From positions 1,523,111 to 1,587,110 of the forward strand of contig OY760073.1 in NCBI GenBank assembly GCA_963663025.1: a stretch of 64,000 nucleotides of DNA. The letters run 5' to 3'. The position numbers were made by a program, and so were the translations under genes. This document shows, piece by piece, positions 20,515 to 28,915 of the stretch. Positions within the stretch are counted from its first letter, which is position 1. The number at the start of each line of letters is the position of its first letter. This DNA is from Dehalococcoidia bacterium (GTDB taxonomy: Bacteria; Chloroflexota; Dehalococcoidia; Lucifugimonadales; JAGWBF01). The notes beneath the pieces are model-generated. The model searched no databases. It saw only the letters and a list, made by a program, of their open reading frames with translations, and was not told the DNA's origin.

Positions 20515-22161
20515 TTGAGGCAACGAGTCGATCTGCAAACCATCCGCGGCGATGTCTTCGGAGGCATAGTTGCGGCCGTGGTGAGCCTGCCGCTTGCGCT
20601 GGCCTTTGGTGTGGCCTCGGGCCTTGGTGCAGCTTCAGGTCTCTATGGAGCGGTCGCCGTGGGCTTTTTCGCGGCGATATCCGGCGGGACCCGGACCCAG
20701 ATATCAGGTCCCACCGGCCCAATGGCCGTGGCGATGGCGGTGGTGATCACCAGCCATGCGACGAGTCTCGCAGGTGCGTTTACGATTGTCATCCTGGCGG
20801 GGCTGATACAGATAATGCTGGGCGTACTGCGCATCGGCCGGTTCGTCGCCTACACTCCCTACTCTGTGATATCCGGGTTCATGTCCGGCATCGGCCTGAT
20901 TATCATACTGGTACAGACGCTGCCCTTTTTGGGGTCGGACATCGCCAGTGGAGGGCCGCTGGGAGCGGTCCACGCCTGGCCGGCCGCCATAAGCGATGTG
21001 AATTTCAGTGCGCTGGCCATCGCAGTCTCCACTCTCGTGGTGGTCGTGGCTTGGCCATCCCAGCTCAGGAAGCTTATGCCCCCCGCGCTTGTGGCGCTCA
21101 TATTCGGCACGCTGCTGGGCGTATTTTGGTTGAGCGAAGCCCCGATAATCGGAAAAGTTCCGACCGGCCTGCCAGAACTGCAACTGCCCGACCTTTCGAC
21201 AGGCAACCTTTTTCACATCATATATCCTGCCGTGACGCTCGCGCTGCTCGGCTCCATCGACACCCTGTTGACCTCTTTGGTAGCTGATTCGATGACGCGT
21301 ACTCGTCACATGCCCAATCGCACGCTGGTGGGCCAGGGCGTTGGCAACATGGCCGCCGGCTTCATAGGCGGATTGCCAGGCGCTGGAGCCACAATGGGTA
21401 CTGTGGTGAACATACGGGCAGGTGGCAAGACGCCTCTTTCGGGAGTGGTTTCGGCGCTGATTCTGCTCGCGATTGTGCTTGGGCTGGGGAGATATGTTGA
21501 GGATGTCCCGCACGCGGTCCTCGCTGGCATCCTGATGAAGGTCGGTTGGGACATAATCGACTGGCGATTCATGACCAGGATATTCCGTGTTCAGCACGAA
21601 CACCTCATTGTGATGGCAGTGACTCTCGGGCTGACGGTGTTCGTGGACCTGGTCACAGCGGTGACCATAGGTCTCATCATTGCCGGAATGGCCAGCGCAC
21701 GCCAGTTCGAGCGGTTCGAACTCGACAGCGTGGTCTCGGTACCGCTGCTGGATCGGGATTTCCTGTTTACCGGGGGAAATAGAGGGAATGAGGGTGAGTG
21801 CCGGGAAGACGAGGAGTGGGACGAATTCTCCGCGCGCGTCGGGCTTGTAGCGCTGAAGGGGACCTTCTCGGTCGCGTCCGCGCACAAGCTCACGAACACG
21901 ATCAGCGCCGACATCCAGGAACATCAGGTCGTCATCTTCAATTTTACGGAGACCATCTACATGGACGACAGCGCCGCTCTTGTTGTTGAGCAGCTGATCG
22001 ATACGGCCACAAAGCAGGATACCGGCTGCATAATCCTGGGGCTGCACGGCCAGCCCGCTGTCACTCTCAAGGCGCTCGACGTACTGAGGCAGGTTCCGGA
22101 AAAGAACGTGGTAACGACCCTGGATGAGGCTAGGGACGCTGCGGCAGCAATGCTCAAGTAG
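20515..22161 (+). CDS. SulP/SLC26 family anion transporter with STAS domain
   Basis: GDVFGGIVAAVVSLPLALAFGVASG, SGPTGPM, GQGVGN, and C-terminal STAS (YMDDSA). Confidence 0.92.
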   Translation: MRQRVDLQTIRGDVFGGIVAAVVSLPLALAFGVASGLGAASGLYGAVAVGFFAAISGGTRTQISGPTGPMAVAMAVVITSHATSLAGAFTIVILAGLIQIMLGVLRIGRFVAYTPYSVISGFMSGIGLIIILVQTLPFLGSDIASGGPLGAVHAWPAAISDVNFSALAIAVSTLVVVVAWPSQLRKLMPPALVALIFGTLLGVFWLSEAPIIGKVPTGLPELQLPDLSTGNLFHIIYPAVTLALLGSIDTLLTSLVADSMTRTRHMPNRTLVGQGVGNMAAGFIGGLPGAGATMGTVVNIRAGGKTPLSGVVSALILLAIVLGLGRYVEDVPHAVLAGILMKVGWDIIDWRFMTRIFRVQHEHLIVMAVTLGLTVFVDLVTAVTIGLIIAGMASARQFERFELDSVVSVPLLDRDFLFTGGNRGNEGECREDEEWDEFSARVGLVALKGTFSVASAHKLTNTISADIQEHQVVIFNFTETIYMDDSAALVVEQLIDTATKQDTGCIILGLHGQPAVTLKALDVLRQVPEKNVVTTLDEARDAAAAMLK

Positions 22162-22196
22162 ACAATCCAACCCCTGGTACTTTGGGCGCTGCTGGG

Positions 22197-22562
22197 TTCC
22201 AGGGTGGCTCTAACACAGGGGCGCCCGCCCCCCTTCGTACTTCGAGAGCCTCAGCACGAACGGAGGGGGATCAGGGCGAACGGGGGTGAGGCGGCCTGTC
22301 CCACCTCCGGGGTTTCCTGGATTGCGGCCTACGCCGCAATGACGAAAGGCGAGGCTGACGGGACGGGGCGTGTCGGACGCATTGCCTGGAAGTCGCTGTT
22401 TATGCCGAAAACCCGCGGCCGTCGTTGCGGCGTAGGCCGCAATCCAGAACGGAGCGCTGCCGGCTTCCAGGATGGCTCTAACACAGGGGCGCCCCCCTTC
22501 GTTCGTGCTTCGAGAGCCTCAGCACGAACGGTCGTAGGGGCGGGTTTCAAACCCGCCCCTAC
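22197..22562. repeat. Left REP cluster: CGTC-type inverted doublet (22317-22344/22420-22447), two CTTCGAGAGCCTCAGCACGAACGG units, and a GTAG palindrome (22534-22562)
   Basis: Read directly from the sequence. GTAGGGGCGGGTTTCAAACCCGCCCCTAC is a perfect GTAG-tagged hairpin; about 30 bp direct repeat at 22197 and 22465. Confidence 0.88.
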
Positions 22563-22589: not shown

Positions 22590-25500
22590 CTAAGAGGTCG
22601 TGAACTGCGCCGCCGTGGCTAGCAGGTTGGCGTTCGTGCACCCGCTGTCGCTGTAGGCCGAGAAGGTGTACGCCGTGCTGGCGGTCAAGCCAGTGACGTT
22701 CACGCTCGTCCCGCTGACCGGCCCCGTACAGGTCGTCTTGCCCGTGGTCGTGGACTTGTAGTACCAGTCGCTGGTGTGGTTGGCGATGGTCAGCGTGGCC
22801 GTCGTGGCGGCGACGCTGGAGGAGGTCAGCTTGGCGTGTATCGTCGCCGTCACCTCGATCTTCATCGACTGGCCAGAGGACAACTCGGGCCAGTGGTTGG
22901 CCGACTGTTGGCGCGCCGCGTCGGCGATGCTCCAGCCGGTGCCGGTGGGCGTGAGCGTCTGCACGTTGCTAGTGGTGCTGTTCAGGTAGGCGGCATTGGC
23001 GGCGCTGGCGCTGACGTGGACGAAGTACGACGTGTTCGCGGCCAGTTCGCAGTTGCTCGAGCAGGTGAACTCGACCTGGCCGTTTGCAGGGGTCCCGCTG
23101 AGGGTCAGCGCGCGCGCCGTCGCGGACGGCGTGCCGTTGGACTGCCTGTCGTGGATGGCCACGGTGACGGCGCTGGCGTTGATCACTGCCGCGAAGTCCA
23201 CCGTGACGCTGGTCAGCTTGTAGATACCGGTCGTGTTGCCCGTGGTGAACTCCTGCGCATGAGCGTTGCCTGGGGCGCTTGGTCCGATGATGAGCAGGGA
23301 GCTCGCGGTCTCGCTCAAGTTGCTCACGGAGGCCACGTCGCCAACCAGCGTGGTGAACTGCGCCGCCGTCGCCAGCAGGTTCGCGGCCGTGCATCCGCTG
23401 TCGCTGTACGCCGAGTAGGTGTAGGCCGTGTTCTTGTCCAGGCCGGTCAGGTTCTTGCTCGTCCCGCTGACGGGGCCCTCGCACGTCGCGCCCGTGTTCG
23501 CGTGCTTGTAGTACCAGTTGCCCGTGTGGTCGGCGATGGTCAGCGTCGCCGTCGTCGCCGCAACGTTCGAGGAGGTGAGGCTAGGGGCGTTGACGAAAGC
23601 AATCTCCGCCACGTTCCAGTCGCTGTGGGAACCCCACGGATAACCACTGTCCTGGTAGTGACCGAACTCGACGCTCCAGCCGTTGCCGGATGGCTGGGCG
23701 GTCTCGGTCTCCGACGCTGCGTAAGCCCAGGCGTAACCGGGGAATGAGAAGGTGGTCAAAACCAGGAAATAGGTGGTGTCGGACGAGAGCTTGCAGCCGC
23801 TTCCCGCGCAGGTGAACGTCGTGTCGCTCCACGTGCTGATGGTCGGAGCGGTCCCGGCGAGCGTCGCCAGCGCCGTGGCGTCCGCTTCACTGGCGCTGGA
23901 GTACTCGCCGGTTCCCTTCATCGCGTGGAGCGTCGCCGTCACGCCATGGACACCGCCCTTCTTCCGTAGTGGCATGGTGACGCTCTTCAGGACGTAGCCG
24001 CCGGAGTTGGAGCCGGTGGTGAAGGCGACCGCCCCTTTATATTGACCGGAAATGGGAGAGTCTCCGCTCTTGGTACTGCCCAGGTTGGAGACGGAGGAGA
24101 ATGTGGTGAACCCTCCCGCCGCAGCCAGCAGGTTGCCCGTCGTGCAGCTGCTGTCGCTGTAGGCCGAGTAGGTGTAGGTCGTGTTGGCCGTGAGGCCGGT
24201 GAGGGCTTTGCTGGTTCCGCTGACCGGGCCATCGCAGGTCGCGCCCGCGCCCGTGTGCTTGTAGTACCAGTTCCCCGTGTGGTGGGCGATGGTCAGCGTC
24301 GCTGTCGTCGCCGCGACGTTGGAAGCGGTGAGCACAGGATTGGGAATGTTTTCGAAGACAACCTCGGCGAGGTTGTAGTCGGACCAACTGGCCCATGCCC
24401 GAGGATTGGGGGCATCCTCCTTATAGTGGCCAAACTCGATGTCCCAGCCATTGTCGGACGGCTGGGCGGTCTGCGTTTCTGTAAGCGCGTAAGCCCACTC
24501 GTACTTTCCGGTGCCGTCGAAGGTCGCCACCACGAAATAAACGGTGTTGGCCGAGAGGCTGCAGCCGCTGCCGGAGCAGGTGAAGGTCGTGTCGGTCCAC
24601 GTACTGGCGGTCGGGGCAGTACCCGAGAGGGTGGCGAGGGCCGTGGTGGACGGAGCGCTGGCCGCGGAGTACTGTCCTGTTCCGGCCATCGCGTGGAGCT
24701 TCAACTGGAGTCCGTTCGTGCCGCCGGATGCGCTGGTGCTCCTCAGCGGCACGGTGACGCCCTTCAGGACGTAGCCGCTGCGGTGGGCGCCAGTGGTGAA
24801 GGCAACCGCTTGCCTTTTGGCGGCGCTGACGTCCCCGGGGCCGGTCTTGGAGCTGCCCAGGTTGGAAACTGAGGAGGTCGTGGTGAACTGCGCCGCCGTA
24901 GCCAGCAGCGTTGAGCAACCGCTGTCGCTGTAGGCCGAGTAGGTGTAGGTCGTGTTGGTTATGAGTCCGGTGAGCGCTTTGCTCGTTCCGCTGACTGGGC
25001 CATCGCAGGTGGCGCCCGTGTTCGTGTGCTTGTAGTACCAATTGCCCGTGCGGTTGGCGATGTTCAGCGTCGCTGTTGTCAGGCCAACGTCCGAGACGGT
25101 CAACAGGATGATGGGTTCAATCAGCGGCGCCAGCGTAAAGGGCGAGCTGCCCCACTCGTTCGTGGTTCTGACCTTGATGTCATACGTTGCACTGTCGTTG
25201 ATGCTGTAGTCGGTGCCGCCAGCCGTCCATGACGTGATAGTGGCGGTAATGGTGCCGCCGGTATCGACGTTGGCGTCTTCGACGTCGGCGCAGAGGGTGT
25301 AGGCGCCCGTGAGGCCATTTACGCGCGTGGCGCACTCGATTTCGTAGCCCTTGCCGTACAACGGCGAAATCCATGACAGTGAAATGGATCCGGCCTGACG
25401 TGTGAACCAGATGGCGGAGGCGTGCGATGAATTCAGCTGCTTGGTGGGCTGGAGCGCCGGACGCGCGTTGGTTGCGGACGCCCAGTCACTGGCATCGGAG

Positions 25501-27240
25501 GGGTTAGTGTTCACCGCGCGCACCGCTACCAGGTAGGAACGGGTCCAGACCAAGTCACGATTGTTGCGGCTGTTCCGGTCAATGGTCAAGGTCGTGGTCG
25601 CGCCCGAATTCACCGAGCCGCATGACCACCACGTGCCCCAGCCGTCGGCGTCGGAGCAGGTCAAGTTGTAGCCGCCCGCGCCCGTCACCGCGGTCCAGGT
25701 TACGTGCAGTTTCTCGTCTTCCTGATAGTTGTCGCGCGTCACCGTCACCGACGCGGGCGCGACAAGCTGGCTCTGGGATTGCGCGGACGCGATAGATGCG
25801 CCCGACGACTGGACGGTGTTCAGCCAGCCGTGGGACGGCAACCGCGAGAGTTCGGTCCAGGGGCCGGCGATGTCTGCGTTGCGGGCGCGCACAGCCACGT
25901 AATCGATGGTCTTGGTCGTCGTGTAACGGTAGGAGGTGGCGGTGACCTTCTGCGCCACATCGTGCCAGTCGGAGGCGCCGGCCTCCTTGGCGCGGATATC
26001 GTAGCCGGTCGCATGGTTGACGGCGTCCCAGGAGATGTCCAGGTAGCCGTCGCCGGGCGTCACGCTGAGGCCGGAGGGCGCGGCGAGCACGGGGATGGCG
26101 GGAACAGCCTTGGCGAACCAGGGCGGGGCGTTGGGGGCGCCGACGCTCGCGCCGCCGCCGTTGACGGCGCGCAGGTGGTAGCGGTACTCCTTGCCGTTGG
26201 CCAAGCCGGTGAAGGTGTGGGACGTGGTCGAAGCGCTGCTGCCCGCGATGGCTGTCCACGGCCCCCAGCCAGACAGGTTTCCGGTGGAGGTGTGGTTGTG
26301 GTTGAGGTTGTACTCGTAGCCGGTGATGGACGAGTCCGACGGGTCGTCCCACGACAGGGTGATGCTGGCGTTGCCCACGGTTGCGGTGAGGCCGGTTGGC
26401 GCGGCCGGCGGCAGGATCACGGGATCTGGTATGGGGGTCGGCGTCGGCGTGGGCTCAGGCGTGGGAGTCGGTGTGGGCGTGGGTTTCGGAGGGGGCGCCG
26501 ACGGGCTCGCGGAGGCGAACCAGGGCGGGGCGTTGGGGGCGCCGATGCTCGCGCCGCCGGCGTTGACGGCCCGGACATGGTAGCGGTACTCGCGCCCATT
26601 CCTGAGGCCGCTGAAGGTGTGGGAGGTGGTGGAGGCGCCGCTGCCCGCGATGGCTGTCCAAGGCCCCCAGCCGGACAGGTTGCCCGTCGAGGTGTCGTTG
26701 TGGTTGAGGTTGTACTCGTAGCCGGTGATGGACGAGTCCGACGGGTCGTTCCACGATAGGGTGACGCTGCCGTCGCCCGCGGTTGCGGTGAGGCCGGTGG
26801 GCGCGGCGGGCGGCGTGGTCTCGGGCTGAATGACAGGCGTGTAGGGCCCGGCGGACGCGGAGTTGGTCCATCCGCCCCAGCCCTGGTCGTTGCCGGCGCG
26901 GACACCGACGATATAGGTCTTGGCATTGTCGGCGGTGAAGGTGAGGGTGTTGGTCGGAACGTTCCGGTGGTCGTCCACGGGAGCGTGCCAGCTTGCGCCG
27001 TCGTCGGTGGAGTAGGTTACGTGGTACTTGGTGGCGCCGGTCGGGGCATCCCAGGAGGCGGTCAGGCTGCCGTTGGCGCGGGAGAGGGAAACGGACTCAG
27101 GAGAGTCGGGGGGGGGGGGGCGACTTCGCCAGCGCGGGAGACGCGAAGAGAGCAACGGCGGCCAGGAGGAGCAGCGCGATCGGGGCGAGGAGGAGCAGGG
27201 CCGGTCGAGGTGATGTTATGGTGGCGCGTCGGATGTTCAA
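22590..27240 (-). CDS. Giant secreted FN3-repeat adhesin-like protein, frameshifted at a G13 tract just after the signal peptide
   Basis: GGAGG RBS and TTG 27240 give signal peptide MNIRRATITSPRPALLLLAPIALLLLAAVALFASPALA-KS. Span is 3n+1; removing one G joins it to the 1521-aa ORF. Contains two near-identical FN3 units, a PT linker, and four TATLTIA..WYYK..C.GPVSGTS..YSAYSDSGC units alternating with three SVSNL..FTTG domains. Confidence 0.85.
27108..27120 (+). repeat. G13 homopolymer tract
   Basis: 13 consecutive G counted; 12 would be in frame. Confidence 0.9.
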
Positions 27241-27342: not shown

Positions 27343-27409
27343 AAATTCAAATATAAAATTCAGATTACGTTCCGTGTCTCAACGAGGGGATGCGCCGCCG
27401 GGGGCGTGT

Positions 27410-27820
27410 CCGTTCACCCTGAGGCTCTCGAAGGGGGAGCGGACAGAAGGGGAGGGCCTGGATCCTCGTTCGTACTTCGAGAGCCTCAGCACGAACGGAG
27501 GCGGGGCGGCCTAGCCGTTCGCCCTGAGGCTCTCGAAGGGGGAATGGGGTGGGGAAGGACGGCAGGCCGGCCCTTCCGTCACATCCCGGCCTGTCCCACC
27601 TCCGGGGTTTCCTGGATTGCGGCCTACGCCGCAATGACGGCGTGGGTTTTCGGCATAAACAGCGACTTCCAGGCAATGCGTCCGACACGCCCCGTCCCGT
27701 CAGCCGCGCTTTTCGTCATTGCGGCGTAGGCCGCAATCCAGAACGGAGCATTGCCGGATTCCAGGATAGCTCCGTCAGCAGGGCGACCTGTTCATGCTTC
27801 GAGAGCCTCAGCACGAACGG
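27410..27820. repeat. Right REP cluster: four CCGTTC..CTGAG..TCGAAG-family units and a CGTC-type inverted doublet (27612-27639/27714-27741)
   Basis: Shares long stretches with 22234-22531 in direct orientation, but the doublet spacer is inverted. Confidence 0.88.
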
Positions 27821-27867
27821 AAGGGGGAAGGACGGCCCTCCTTAGTGGAGTGAGGATGAAGGATGGA

Positions 27868-28704
27868 TCATCCCCCGGCTTCGATGGGGGTGTCGTCCCT
27901 GTTGCCCCACTCCTTCCAGGAGGCGTCGTAGTTGCATGCCCGCTCGTAGCCCAGGAGCTTCAACACCAGCGTGCTGTGACCAGCACGAATCCCGGCCTGT
28001 CAGTGGGCTAACACCTCTTTTTCCGGCGTTATGCCCTTGGCCTCCAGAAGCTCCCGCATCTCCCCTGCGGCCTTGAAGGTGTGGGTCCCTTCATCCATCA
28101 GGTCCGACCACTCCAGGTGATGGGCGCCGGGGATGTGCCCGGCCCGCTGATTGCCGCGGGTGTTCTCCCCCGTGTACTCGGCACGGCTCCGCACATCCCA
28201 GACCACAACGTCCGGGTCCTGGTACGCCTCCTTCAGTCGCTCTGCGGTGACCAGCAAAGAGGCATCAGCCTTGGGTGTGAACGTAGCCCCTTCCTTCCCT
28301 CGGCTTGGGGTTGTGCTCAAGGGCCTGCCTTCCTCCAGCCACTTCTTCCAGCCGCCGTTGAGCACCTTGACCTTGTCGTGGCCGTAGTAGTTCAGGACCC
28401 ACCAGAACCTTCCGGCGTACAGGGAACGGGTGTGGTCATAGGCCACCACCAGGGTATCGTCGCCGATGCCCAGCCCCTCCATCATGTGGGCGCACTGCTC
28501 GGGGGAAACAACGTGCACCTGGCCGGTGTCTTGGTTTTTCTCGTAGTTGTCTGGCACCACGACAGCGCCGGGAATGTGGGCGCGGTAGTAGGAGGCCGCG
28601 GGGTCGGTATCCACGATGCAGATGTCTGGGTCCTCTAGGTGATCTGCAAGCCACTGGGTCTCAGCCAGGTATTCAGGGTGGGCATATCCCTCTGCTGACG
28701 CCAT
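27868..28704 (-). CDS. Tandem-rhodanese sulfurtransferase, probable selenoprotein (UGA at the catalytic position)
   Basis: The ORF track stops at EVLAH*; the same frame continues [46 protein letters not shown], which is the rhodanese active-site loop and YDxSWxEW signature. Confidence 0.88.
27966..27995 (-). promoter_or_regulatory. Putative bacterial SECIS element
   Basis: Starting 12 nt after UGA: CGUGCUG-GUCA-CAGCACG, a perfect 7-bp stem with a G-first apical loop, plus a lower CCGG/CUGG pairing. Confidence 0.7.
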
Positions 28705-28915
28705 CCCGCTCCTCCTAATTCCGGCTATTGGACACGCCCCAGCCTATAGCCGCCCCCTAGCCCAGTCAACTACAGGCCCCGTGCGCCAGTCACCCTTGAC
28801 CGGAAAACGGGCGCACCCTACGATGGTACTCCGTTCCCAAGCCCAGTTGGATCGGGAAGCGGGCCAGGAAACGCCATTAAGCACATCGCCGTCAATGCCA
28901 ATAAGGGAGGTTGTC

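What the first reader, a model, noticed from the sequence alone, without database searches (positions are those of the whole stretch)
27868..28704. Hidden selenoprotein: sulfurtransferase with UGA at the catalytic cysteine and a SECIS-like hairpin
Seen: TGA (28002-28000) falls exactly at the active-site position (H-*-QAGIRA), and 43 more codons continue in frame with the rhodanese signature [11 protein letters not shown] perfect 7-bp hairpin with loop GUCA starts 12 nt downstream. Known: two-domain rhodaneses use a Cys in this loop, bacterial SECIS elements lie just 3' of UGA with a G at the start of the apical loop, and Sec-containing rhodanese-like proteins have been reported. Inference: a 278-aa Sec enzyme that standard annotation truncates, implying Sec machinery elsewhere in this genome.
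Basis: partly seen in the sequence, partly recalled or inferred. Interest (0 to 1): 0.75.

Follow-up and report, generated by a model that had tools for sequence, protein, structure and literature searches.

The report
Selenocysteine rhodanese with shifted SECIS hairpin
This sulfur-transfer enzyme gene has a UGA codon at its catalytic residue that is very likely read as selenocysteine; the family has been predicted since 2005, so it is real but mostly ordinary, apart from a recoding hairpin whose predicted pairing has shifted in this genus.

Summary
Confirmed, but a known family. Window 28704-27868 (-) encodes a 278-aa tandem rhodanese. Its in-frame TGA (codon 235) aligns with the active-site Cys of solved rhodaneses. 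The genome has selA, selB, selC and selD, and selD carries its own TGA. TGA holds this column in 106 of 125 distinct homologues; the other 19 have Cys. The 2005 Sargasso Sea 'rhodanese-related sulfurtransferase' selenoproteins show the same motif and hairpin DNA. A 2026 review still lists the family as predicted only. This scan reported it before in four other genomes.

It is a shifted register seen only in this genus (6 of 6). The other 100 Sec sequences keep a shorter hairpin with near-frozen codons. One base pair in that hairpin swaps G-C for U-A, changing two residues at once (Ala/His to Ser/Asn) in several lineages (AU test p=0.003). Public collections hold the protein cut at the UGA. Sec insertion and substrate are inferred, not shown. 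In passing: a probable Sec-containing luciferase-like oxidoreductase near selD.

The parts
27868..28704 (-). Gene for a 278-aa tandem-domain rhodanese/sulfurtransferase (SseA/COG2897 type), read through the internal UGA; ends at TGA 27870-27868
   Evidence: Pfam PF00581 twice; best solved match 1UAR over residues 6-277, E 2.9e-54
28711..28716 (-). Shine-Dalgarno-like AGGAGG, 6 nt before the ATG
   Evidence: sequence
28333..28659 (-). N-terminal rhodanese domain (residues 16-124); non-catalytic by family knowledge
27895..28251 (-). C-terminal catalytic rhodanese domain (about residues 152-270; limits approximate, read from the alignment)
   Evidence: second PF00581 stretch; alignment to 1UAR and 1E0C
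28000..28002 (-). In-frame TGA, codon 235, predicted selenocysteine at the catalytic position (motif U-Q-A-G-I-R, i.e. UxxG)
   Evidence: aligns with the Cys of CRIAER in 1UAR and CQTHHR in 1E0C; TGA in 106 of 125 homologues, Cys codons in 19
27970..27987 (-). Predicted bacterial SECIS upper stem-loop, genus-specific register: 7 bp, loop GUCA at 27980-27977, 19 nt after the UGA, -11.2 kcal/mol
   Evidence: 7 of 7 pairs in all 6 genomes of the genus and in none of the other 100 Sec sequences; pattern not found in 400 other genomes of the class
27974..27988 (-). Position of the family-wide SECIS register (6 bp, 3-nt loop 17 nt after the UGA), reduced here to 4 of 6 pairs
27871..27999 (-). 43 codons after the UGA: rest of the active-site loop, following helix and the C-terminal YDASWKEW rhodanese signature; missing from database versions of the protein

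Best explanation
The gene encodes a two-domain rhodanese whose catalytic codon is a UGA that is very likely recoded to selenocysteine by SelB, tRNA-Sec and a predicted SECIS hairpin inside the coding sequence, giving a 278-aa enzyme that would transfer sulfane sulfur. Shown: the codon position, the Sec machinery, conservation of UGA plus hairpin, and loss of the hairpin in Cys forms. Inferred from rhodanese chemistry (recalled): the Sec235 selenolate takes sulfane sulfur from a donor such as thiosulfate, an organic thiosulfonate, a polysulfide or 3-mercaptopyruvate, forms a Se-S intermediate, and passes the sulfur to a thiol or sulfite acceptor. The donor is not known. The SECIS overlaps codons +5 to +10, which encode the end of the active-site loop and the next helix, so the RNA structure likely constrains those residues. 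In this genus the hairpin is predicted to have re-paired in a new register, alongside a Gly-to-Ser change at +9.
For: Position: U235 aligns with the active-site Cys of 1UAR and 1E0C. Machinery: selA 547 bits (cut-off 268), selB 315 (242), selD 372 (125) with one in-frame TGA, tRNA-Sec 70.2 bits (47) with anticodon TCA. Conservation: TGA in 29 of the 30 best matches among 41 related genomes, in all 80 loci kept from the GTDB scan, and in 106 of 125 distinct sequences. The frame stays open for about 40 codons to a conserved end in all 30 loci printed. All 30 genomes with a TGA copy have selA; the 3 of 40 without a selA match have no TGA copy. Hairpin: family register at least 5 of 6 pairs in 100 of 106 Sec sequences and at most 3 of 6 in all 19 Cys sequences. 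Codons are nearly frozen: Arg+5 is CGT in 101 of 106, and CGT-GCG-GCG-CAC holds in 24 of 24 loci under 46% GC, while Gly codons at +2 and +3 use all four third bases. G-C to U-A compensation in 7 of 29. The window hairpin meets the four published bSECIS constraints. The published family has the same motif and DNA.
Against: No protein, selenium-labelling or reporter data exist here. The window's own hairpin is unremarkable against shuffles, and in 3 of the 6 genus members its pairing probability is only 0.47-0.55. One close Cys orthologue (G040) sits in a genome that has selA, so Sec is dispensable in some lineages. The sequences are related, so the counts overstate independence. NCBIfam gives no match over cut-off (best PRK11493, 143 bits against 250), and gene context in the window gives no substrate clue.
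Confidence: 0.95

Rival explanations
1. The TGA is a true stop (nonsense mutation, pseudogene or assembly error) and the product is a 234-aa protein without its catalytic residue.
For: Gene callers end the protein there: the 234-aa form is in the collection, and the four cluster members read in full all end just before the TGA. TGA is a normal stop in this genome (285 of 1069 long ORFs).
Against: The same TGA is kept at one column across genomes from 32% to 68% GC, with a conserved downstream frame and constrained synonymous sites. It alternates only with Cys codons. The 2005 shotgun sequences show it too.
Confidence: 0.01
2. UGA is reassigned genome-wide (Trp or Gly, as in code 4 or 25), or read here as Cys by a non-Sec route.
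For: Would also give a full-length enzyme; Cys at this site would be catalytically competent.
Against: TGA ends 285 of 1069 long ORFs. The only tRNA with a TCA anticodon is called tRNA-SeC, and tRNA-Trp has CCA. The hairpin tracks the TGA state. Cys insertion by a Sec-like route was not tested directly.
Confidence: 0.02
3. It is a selenoprotein, but its main job is carrying selenium (for example to SelD) or thiol-type redox work rather than sulfur transfer. This is compatible with the recoding claim and rivals only the function.
For: Cys rhodaneses binding selenium is discussed in the literature (search listing only). The genome has many other UGA-containing redox genes.
Against: The gene is not near selA, selB, selC or selD (G000 about 1.551 Mb against 2.02, 2.32, 0.49 and 1.79 Mb). 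It is the only tandem rhodanese found in G000. In 46 of 108 loci a nearby gene is arylsulfotransferase-like, which points to sulfur chemistry.
Confidence: 0.15
4. The coupled Ala/His to Ser/Asn changes and the frozen codons reflect protein-level selection or shared ancestry, not RNA pairing.
For: The residues lie next to the active site; only 7 sequences carry Ser/Asn; several tree branches are weakly supported.
Against: Synonymous positions are frozen too. Ser with His occurs in 12 of 19 Cys homologues but in 0 of 106 Sec sequences, though those 12 are paralogues of another subfamily. A single Ser/Asn clade is rejected (p-AU 0.003, 5 changes).
Confidence: 0.2

Closest known systems
[quoted passage not shown]
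   Same: Same motif (published YUQAGVRAAH and YUQGGIRAAH against [10 protein letters not shown] here), same C-terminal signature and length after Sec, and the published DNA carries the CGTGCGGCGCAC hairpin core found in my orthologues (compared by eye). Listed as predicted, not experimentally verified.
   Different: The window's genus has re-paired the SECIS in a shifted register (7 bp, GUCA loop at +20 instead of a 3-nt loop at +18) and has Ser at +9. The 2005 and 2008 entries I saw are metagenome fragments; every titled record among my 80 loci is Chloroflexota/Dehalococcoidia/SAR202.
Cys-type tandem rhodaneses with solved structures: 1UAR, 1E0C, 3HZU (SseA), 1URH (3-mercaptopyruvate sulfurtransferase)
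   Same: Two-domain architecture, full-length alignment, catalytic residue at the same column.
   Different: Cys instead of Sec; different loop residues (CRIAER, CQTHHR against UQAGIR), so substrate preference cannot be transferred.
Other Sec rhodanese forms (forms 1-3 and 5 of the 2026 review; NCBIfam NF041203, NF045694; ExtH NF040901)
   Same: Rhodanese fold; the review lists Sec motifs for forms 1-3 and 5.
   Different: The window protein scores far below the cut-offs of NF041203 (35.6 against 115) and NF040901 (64 against 200) and has no listed match to NF045694. The GOS entry named 'Sulfurtransferase COG2897' is a different sequence (PTUGFSP). G000 also has a separate single-domain UGA rhodanese.
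Bacterial SECIS consensus model (as summarised in PMC13188914)
   Same: Loop 3-9 nt, stem 4-16 bp, G in the first two loop positions, 16-37 nt from UGA, energy at or below -7.5 kcal/mol: all met (4 nt, 7 bp, G first, 19 nt, -11.2).
   Different: Nothing in the model; the change of register within one family is the observation added here.

Membership tests
Sec rhodanese-related sulfurtransferase (COG2897/cd01449, form 4) | Tandem rhodanese (SseA-type) protein | tested here: met
   PF00581 twice; full-length match to 1UAR and SseA. COG and CDD profiles themselves were not available.
Sec rhodanese-related sulfurtransferase (COG2897/cd01449, form 4) | UGA at the catalytic Cys column, motif UxxG | tested here: met
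   UQAG
Sec rhodanese-related sulfurtransferase (COG2897/cd01449, form 4) | Sequence likeness to the founding members | tested here: met
   Supplement sequences of PMC1088965 and PMC2398784 share motif, C-terminal signature and hairpin DNA; compared by eye, no score computed
Bacterial selenoprotein gene | selA, selB, selC, selD in the genome | tested here: met
Bacterial selenoprotein gene | bSECIS stem-loop 3' of UGA meeting the consensus constraints | tested here: met
   bSECISearch itself was not available
Bacterial selenoprotein gene | Cys-containing homologues (Sec/Cys pair) | tested here: met
   19 of 125, two of them close orthologues with CQ[G/A]GIRAAH
Bacterial selenoprotein gene | Selenocysteine actually inserted | not testable with these tools
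   needs 75Se labelling or proteomics
3-mercaptopyruvate sulfurtransferase (PRK11493 equivalog) | Score over the curated cut-off | tested here: not met
   143.3 bits against 250
ExtH and LYCAU-type rhodanese (seleno)proteins | Score over the curated cut-offs | tested here: not met
   64 against 200 and 35.6 against 115
Rhodanese/sulfurtransferase enzymes | Sulfurtransferase activity and donor specificity | not testable with these tools
   inferred from homology only

The most novel reading that the evidence does not exclude
This family is a natural experiment in which an mRNA recoding signal steers the evolution of an enzyme's active site. The SECIS stem forced the same double substitution (Ala+6/His+8 to Ser/Asn) in up to five separate lineages, and in the window's genus the element escaped by re-pairing in a new register that moved the SelB-read loop 2 nt further from the UGA and came with a Gly-to-Ser change. 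That makes SECIS turnover inside a catalytic motif directly testable with a handful of natural alleles.
Probability: 0.6. Interest if true: 0.45.

Novelty: new member of a known kind. Interest (0 to 1): 0.3.

Why it matters
The family is known, so the main value is practical. The six orthologues I looked up, and the window's own gene, are held in the public collection as products cut at the UGA, without the catalytic residue. In an even sample of 400 other genomes of the class, 105 carry the UGA-plus-hairpin pattern. Sulfur-metabolism and selenoproteome inventories of these mostly uncultured Chloroflexota may therefore be undercounted. The 2026 review lists the family as predicted only; this complete, single-contig context with a strong 7-bp SECIS is a good template for a first biochemical test of what selenium does for a sulfurtransferase. 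The register shift and paired residue changes give ready-made alleles for studying how coding-region SECIS elements evolve.

Tried and rejected
Nonsense mutation or assembly error: rejected. Genome-wide UGA reassignment: rejected. The 7-bp GUCA hairpin as the family-wide SECIS: rejected (7 of 7 pairs only in the six genus members). Folding energy of the window hairpin as evidence on its own: not significant. RNAalifold on 29 rows recovered only three pairs of the stem plus weak pairs elsewhere. Operon context: no shared neighbour in the window's genus emerged from the ORF clustering; the promoter/terminator scan gave nothing above shuffles. Sequencing runs: no RNA holder listed; no reads were laid. 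A second TGA or TAG reported inside some matches is the terminal stop. One weak locus (L074) does not cover the active site and was dropped; 4 duplicate proteins were dropped before counting (129 to 125). Of 58 matches, 50 were fetched; of 141, the best 80 were returned. Two genome-wide UGA candidates (an AAA-ATPase-like/vWA-like pair at G000:280593 and a DNA methylase-like gene at G000:1062767) look like ordinary stops and were set aside on reading alone. A 125-sequence tree did not return; trees were built on 52 and 28 rows. No structure prediction was run, since the alignment to solved structures already places the residue. Haft & Tolstoy 2025 (PMC12013261) is not held and may bear on what is already annotated.

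Full report
Observation. The reverse strand of 28704-27868 reads as one frame of 278 sense codons with a single internal TGA at 28002-28000, codon 235. A standard ORF list ends the gene there at 234 aa. Pfam finds two rhodanese domains. phmmer against solved structures aligns residues 6-277 with 1UAR (E 2.9e-54) and puts residue 235 on the Cys of CRIAER in 1UAR and CQTHHR in 1E0C; that this Cys is the catalytic one is established family knowledge. Truncation would remove it, the rest of the loop and the C-terminal signature. The hairpin is as described: 12-nt spacer, 7 pairs, loop GUCA, -11.2 kcal/mol. By itself it is not clearly more stable than shuffles (z -0.99, -1.69, -0.29).

Machinery and code. 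The window's genome (G000, one contig, 2.35 Mb, 93.9% complete) has selA, selB and selD over their curated cut-offs and a tRNA-Sec with anticodon TCA; selD has its own in-frame TGA in the context CAG-U-AAK. TGA remains an ordinary stop, ending 285 of 1069 long ORFs, and tRNA-Trp is CCA, so genome-wide reassignment is excluded. A rough script scan for read-through UGAs (83 candidates after filters) gave 15 that I read in full. Ten resemble known selenoprotein types: SelD, a TIGR02187 protein over cut-off, OsmC-like, two peroxiredoxin-like, SelL-like, ArsC/Spx-like, a single-domain rhodanese, and two glutaredoxin-like proteins; an FtrB-like fragment makes eleven (most are below the family cut-offs). 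Most have a hairpin with a short G-initiated loop 17-27 nt after the UGA.

Orthologues. Among G000 and 40 relatives, 29 of the 30 best matches have TGA at this column and one has TGT. I fetched 20 of the 28 remaining matches: one more close Cys orthologue (G038), one divergent TGA copy (G020), 17 Cys paralogues (CRIGER, CRLGVR, CQTAVR types) and one locus that does not cover the site. All 30 genomes with a TGA copy have selA. The three of 40 without a selA match (G006, G038, G039) have none; G040 has selA but a Cys orthologue. A scan of GTDB genomes confirmed 141 relatives and returned the best 80, all titled Chloroflexota, Dehalococcoidia or SAR202, and all with TGA. After dropping 4 duplicates: 106 TGA and 19 Cys codons in 125 sequences. 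These sets are enriched for close relatives and are not independent. In an even sample of 400 other genomes of the class, 105 match a 28-letter UGA-plus-hairpin pattern and the reversed control matches none.

The SECIS. The family-wide structure is a 6-bp stem closing a 3-nt loop at +18, over codons +5 to +9. At least 5 of 6 pairs form in 100 of 106 Sec sequences and at most 3 in all 19 Cys sequences; median pairing probability is 1.0 in the 100 and 0.00-0.01 in the Cys set. Synonymous sites are nearly frozen: Arg+5 is CGT in 101 of 106, His+8 is CAC in 97 of 98, and all 24 loci under 46% GC read CGT-GCG-GCG-CAC, while Gly codons at +2 and +3 vary freely. On 29 aligned orthologues one pair changes on both sides (G-C in 22, U-A in 7); the covariation score is 0.184 against 0.056 in shuffles, 0 of 500 as high, a control that ignores relatedness. 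That base-pair swap changes two residues at once: Ala+6/His+8 in 98 sequences, Ser/Asn in 7, Ala/Leu in 1, never Ser/His, although Ser/His occurs in 12 of 19 Cys homologues. On a 28-row tree built without these columns the trait needs 5 changes and a single Ser/Asn clade is rejected (p-AU 0.003). It is a quick tree with 8 of 25 inner branches under 80, and I had seen a first tree before the test.

The window's genus is the exception. In all six genomes the family register keeps 4 of 6 pairs and has pairing probability 0.0. A new register with 7 of 7 pairs and loop GUCA at +20 has probability 0.47-1.0; none of the other 100 Sec sequences has 7 of 7 in it. The three genus members on the 28-row tree form a clade with support 99, all six do, and the pattern is not found in 400 other class genomes with one mismatch allowed (no listed genome of that sample is from the window's own family). 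The new 3' arm needs AGC at +9, i.e. Ser for the usual Gly. Both the usual and the new stem meet the published bSECIS constraints (-8.0 and -11.2 kcal/mol); the isolated Ser/Asn stem (-5.8) falls short unless the lower stem is counted. Which register folds in vivo is predicted, not shown.

Function. By homology the enzyme would form a Se-S intermediate on Sec235 and pass sulfane sulfur from donor to acceptor (chemistry recalled). It is the only tandem rhodanese found in G000. It is below the cut-off for 3-mercaptopyruvate sulfurtransferase, and its loop differs from those of the two closest structures aligned, so the donor is open. Window neighbours are uninformative: a divergent SMP-30/gluconolactonase gene upstream, and repeats plus a large Fn3 protein gene downstream. 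In 46 of 108 loci, none from the 30 relatives with short flanks, a nearby gene is arylsulfotransferase-like, a weak pointer to organosulfur metabolism.

Annotation. The truncated product of the window and of six orthologues is in the 15-billion-protein collection, some named sulfurtransferase or hypothetical protein in NCBI nr; the C-for-U full-length sequence is not (this look-up cannot see records with U). The two members of near full length turned out to have long N-termini and also stop before the TGA.

What is known. PMC1088965 (passages, outline and supplement passages seen) reported three 'rhodanese-related sulfurtransferase, COG2897' selenoproteins in 2005; the two entries I saw read YUQAGVRAAH and, in DNA, TGA-CAA-GGT-GGC-ATA-CGT-GCG-GCG-CAT, i.e. 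this motif and the family hairpin. PMC2398784 (passages and supplement passages) lists eight. PMC9312934 (passages) and PMC13188914 (passages and section 7 parts 1-2 of 3) carry the family, the latter as 'form 4, UxxG' under 'predicted with high confidence'. PMC1976440 (passages) lists similar names whose identity with this family I could not settle. Search listings showed no biochemical study of the Sec form, and one search showed no paper on SECIS-driven residue covariation; one search found three papers holding both SAR202 and selenocysteine, each mentioning the latter once. These searches cover open-access text only. Four earlier notes of this scan reached the same family verdict on other genomes, after I had found the papers; the listings shown do not mention the register shift.

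Verdict. Real, very likely a selenoprotein (0.95), a new member of a family predicted 20 years ago and still listed as predicted only. Interest 0.3, lifted slightly by the SECIS register shift and the repeated compensatory residue changes.

Noticed in passing
G000:C1:1792777-1793772 (+), locus L155:4778-5773; outside the window: A luciferase-like (LLM-class) oxidoreductase gene, two genes downstream of selD, has an in-frame TGA at codon 109 with a 7-bp hairpin and GGU loop at +18 (-18.0 kcal/mol). TGA and hairpin are in 6 of 6 genomes of the genus. The two closest outside orthologues (67-69%) and four more distant homologues (41-44%) have Cys there; the other 18 of 30 loci have Gly, Ala or Ser. 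No such family is in Table 1 of the 2026 review, and a three-term paper search found nothing. Probably a selenoprotein family not yet catalogued and more novel than this finding; three earlier scan notes report it from other genomes.
   Followed up: partly
G000:C1, TGA at 1801338 (-), locus L166:435-1370: An SsuA-like ABC substrate-binding protein reads through a TGA (YRA-U-EEG) with 234 further codons; the hairpin is weak. Possible selenoprotein, orthologues not checked.
   Followed up: no
G000:C1, TGA at 925727, 1897233, 1161959, 2202245, 1596514, 128230, 648045, 1155653, 1155851, 1327380: Further likely selenoprotein genes of known types (single-domain rhodanese, protein disulfide oxidoreductase, OsmC-like, peroxiredoxin-like, ArsC/Spx-like, SelL-like, FtrB-like, glutaredoxin-like), suggesting a selenoproteome of a dozen or more in a 2.35-Mb genome.
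   Followed up: partly
L056 (G020:C1:117697-118512): A divergent TGA-bearing tandem rhodanese with loop U-GGGAR, whose different codons (GCG CGG GCG TCG CTC GCG) still form 6 of 6 pairs in the family SECIS register.
   Followed up: no
window 22152-22540 and 27400-27830, flanking 22590-27155: A 1521-aa Fn3-repeat protein gene is flanked on both sides by mosaics of short intergenic repeats, including a 101-nt inverted pair (97% complementary, 22317-22417 and 27641-27741) and a perfect 53-nt direct repeat. REP-like or mobile-element-derived; not examined further.
   Followed up: no
L082-L154, e.g. L102:1633-2775: An arylsulfotransferase-like gene (PF05935/PF14269) lies near the Sec rhodanese in 46 of 108 loci, directly downstream in the representative locus; luciferase-like monooxygenase genes recur nearby in 13-17 loci.
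   Followed up: partly
L028 (G003:C114:6164-6409): A second partial copy of the gene's first 82 codons (84% identity) lies 1.3 kb upstream of the intact gene in one genus member.
   Followed up: no
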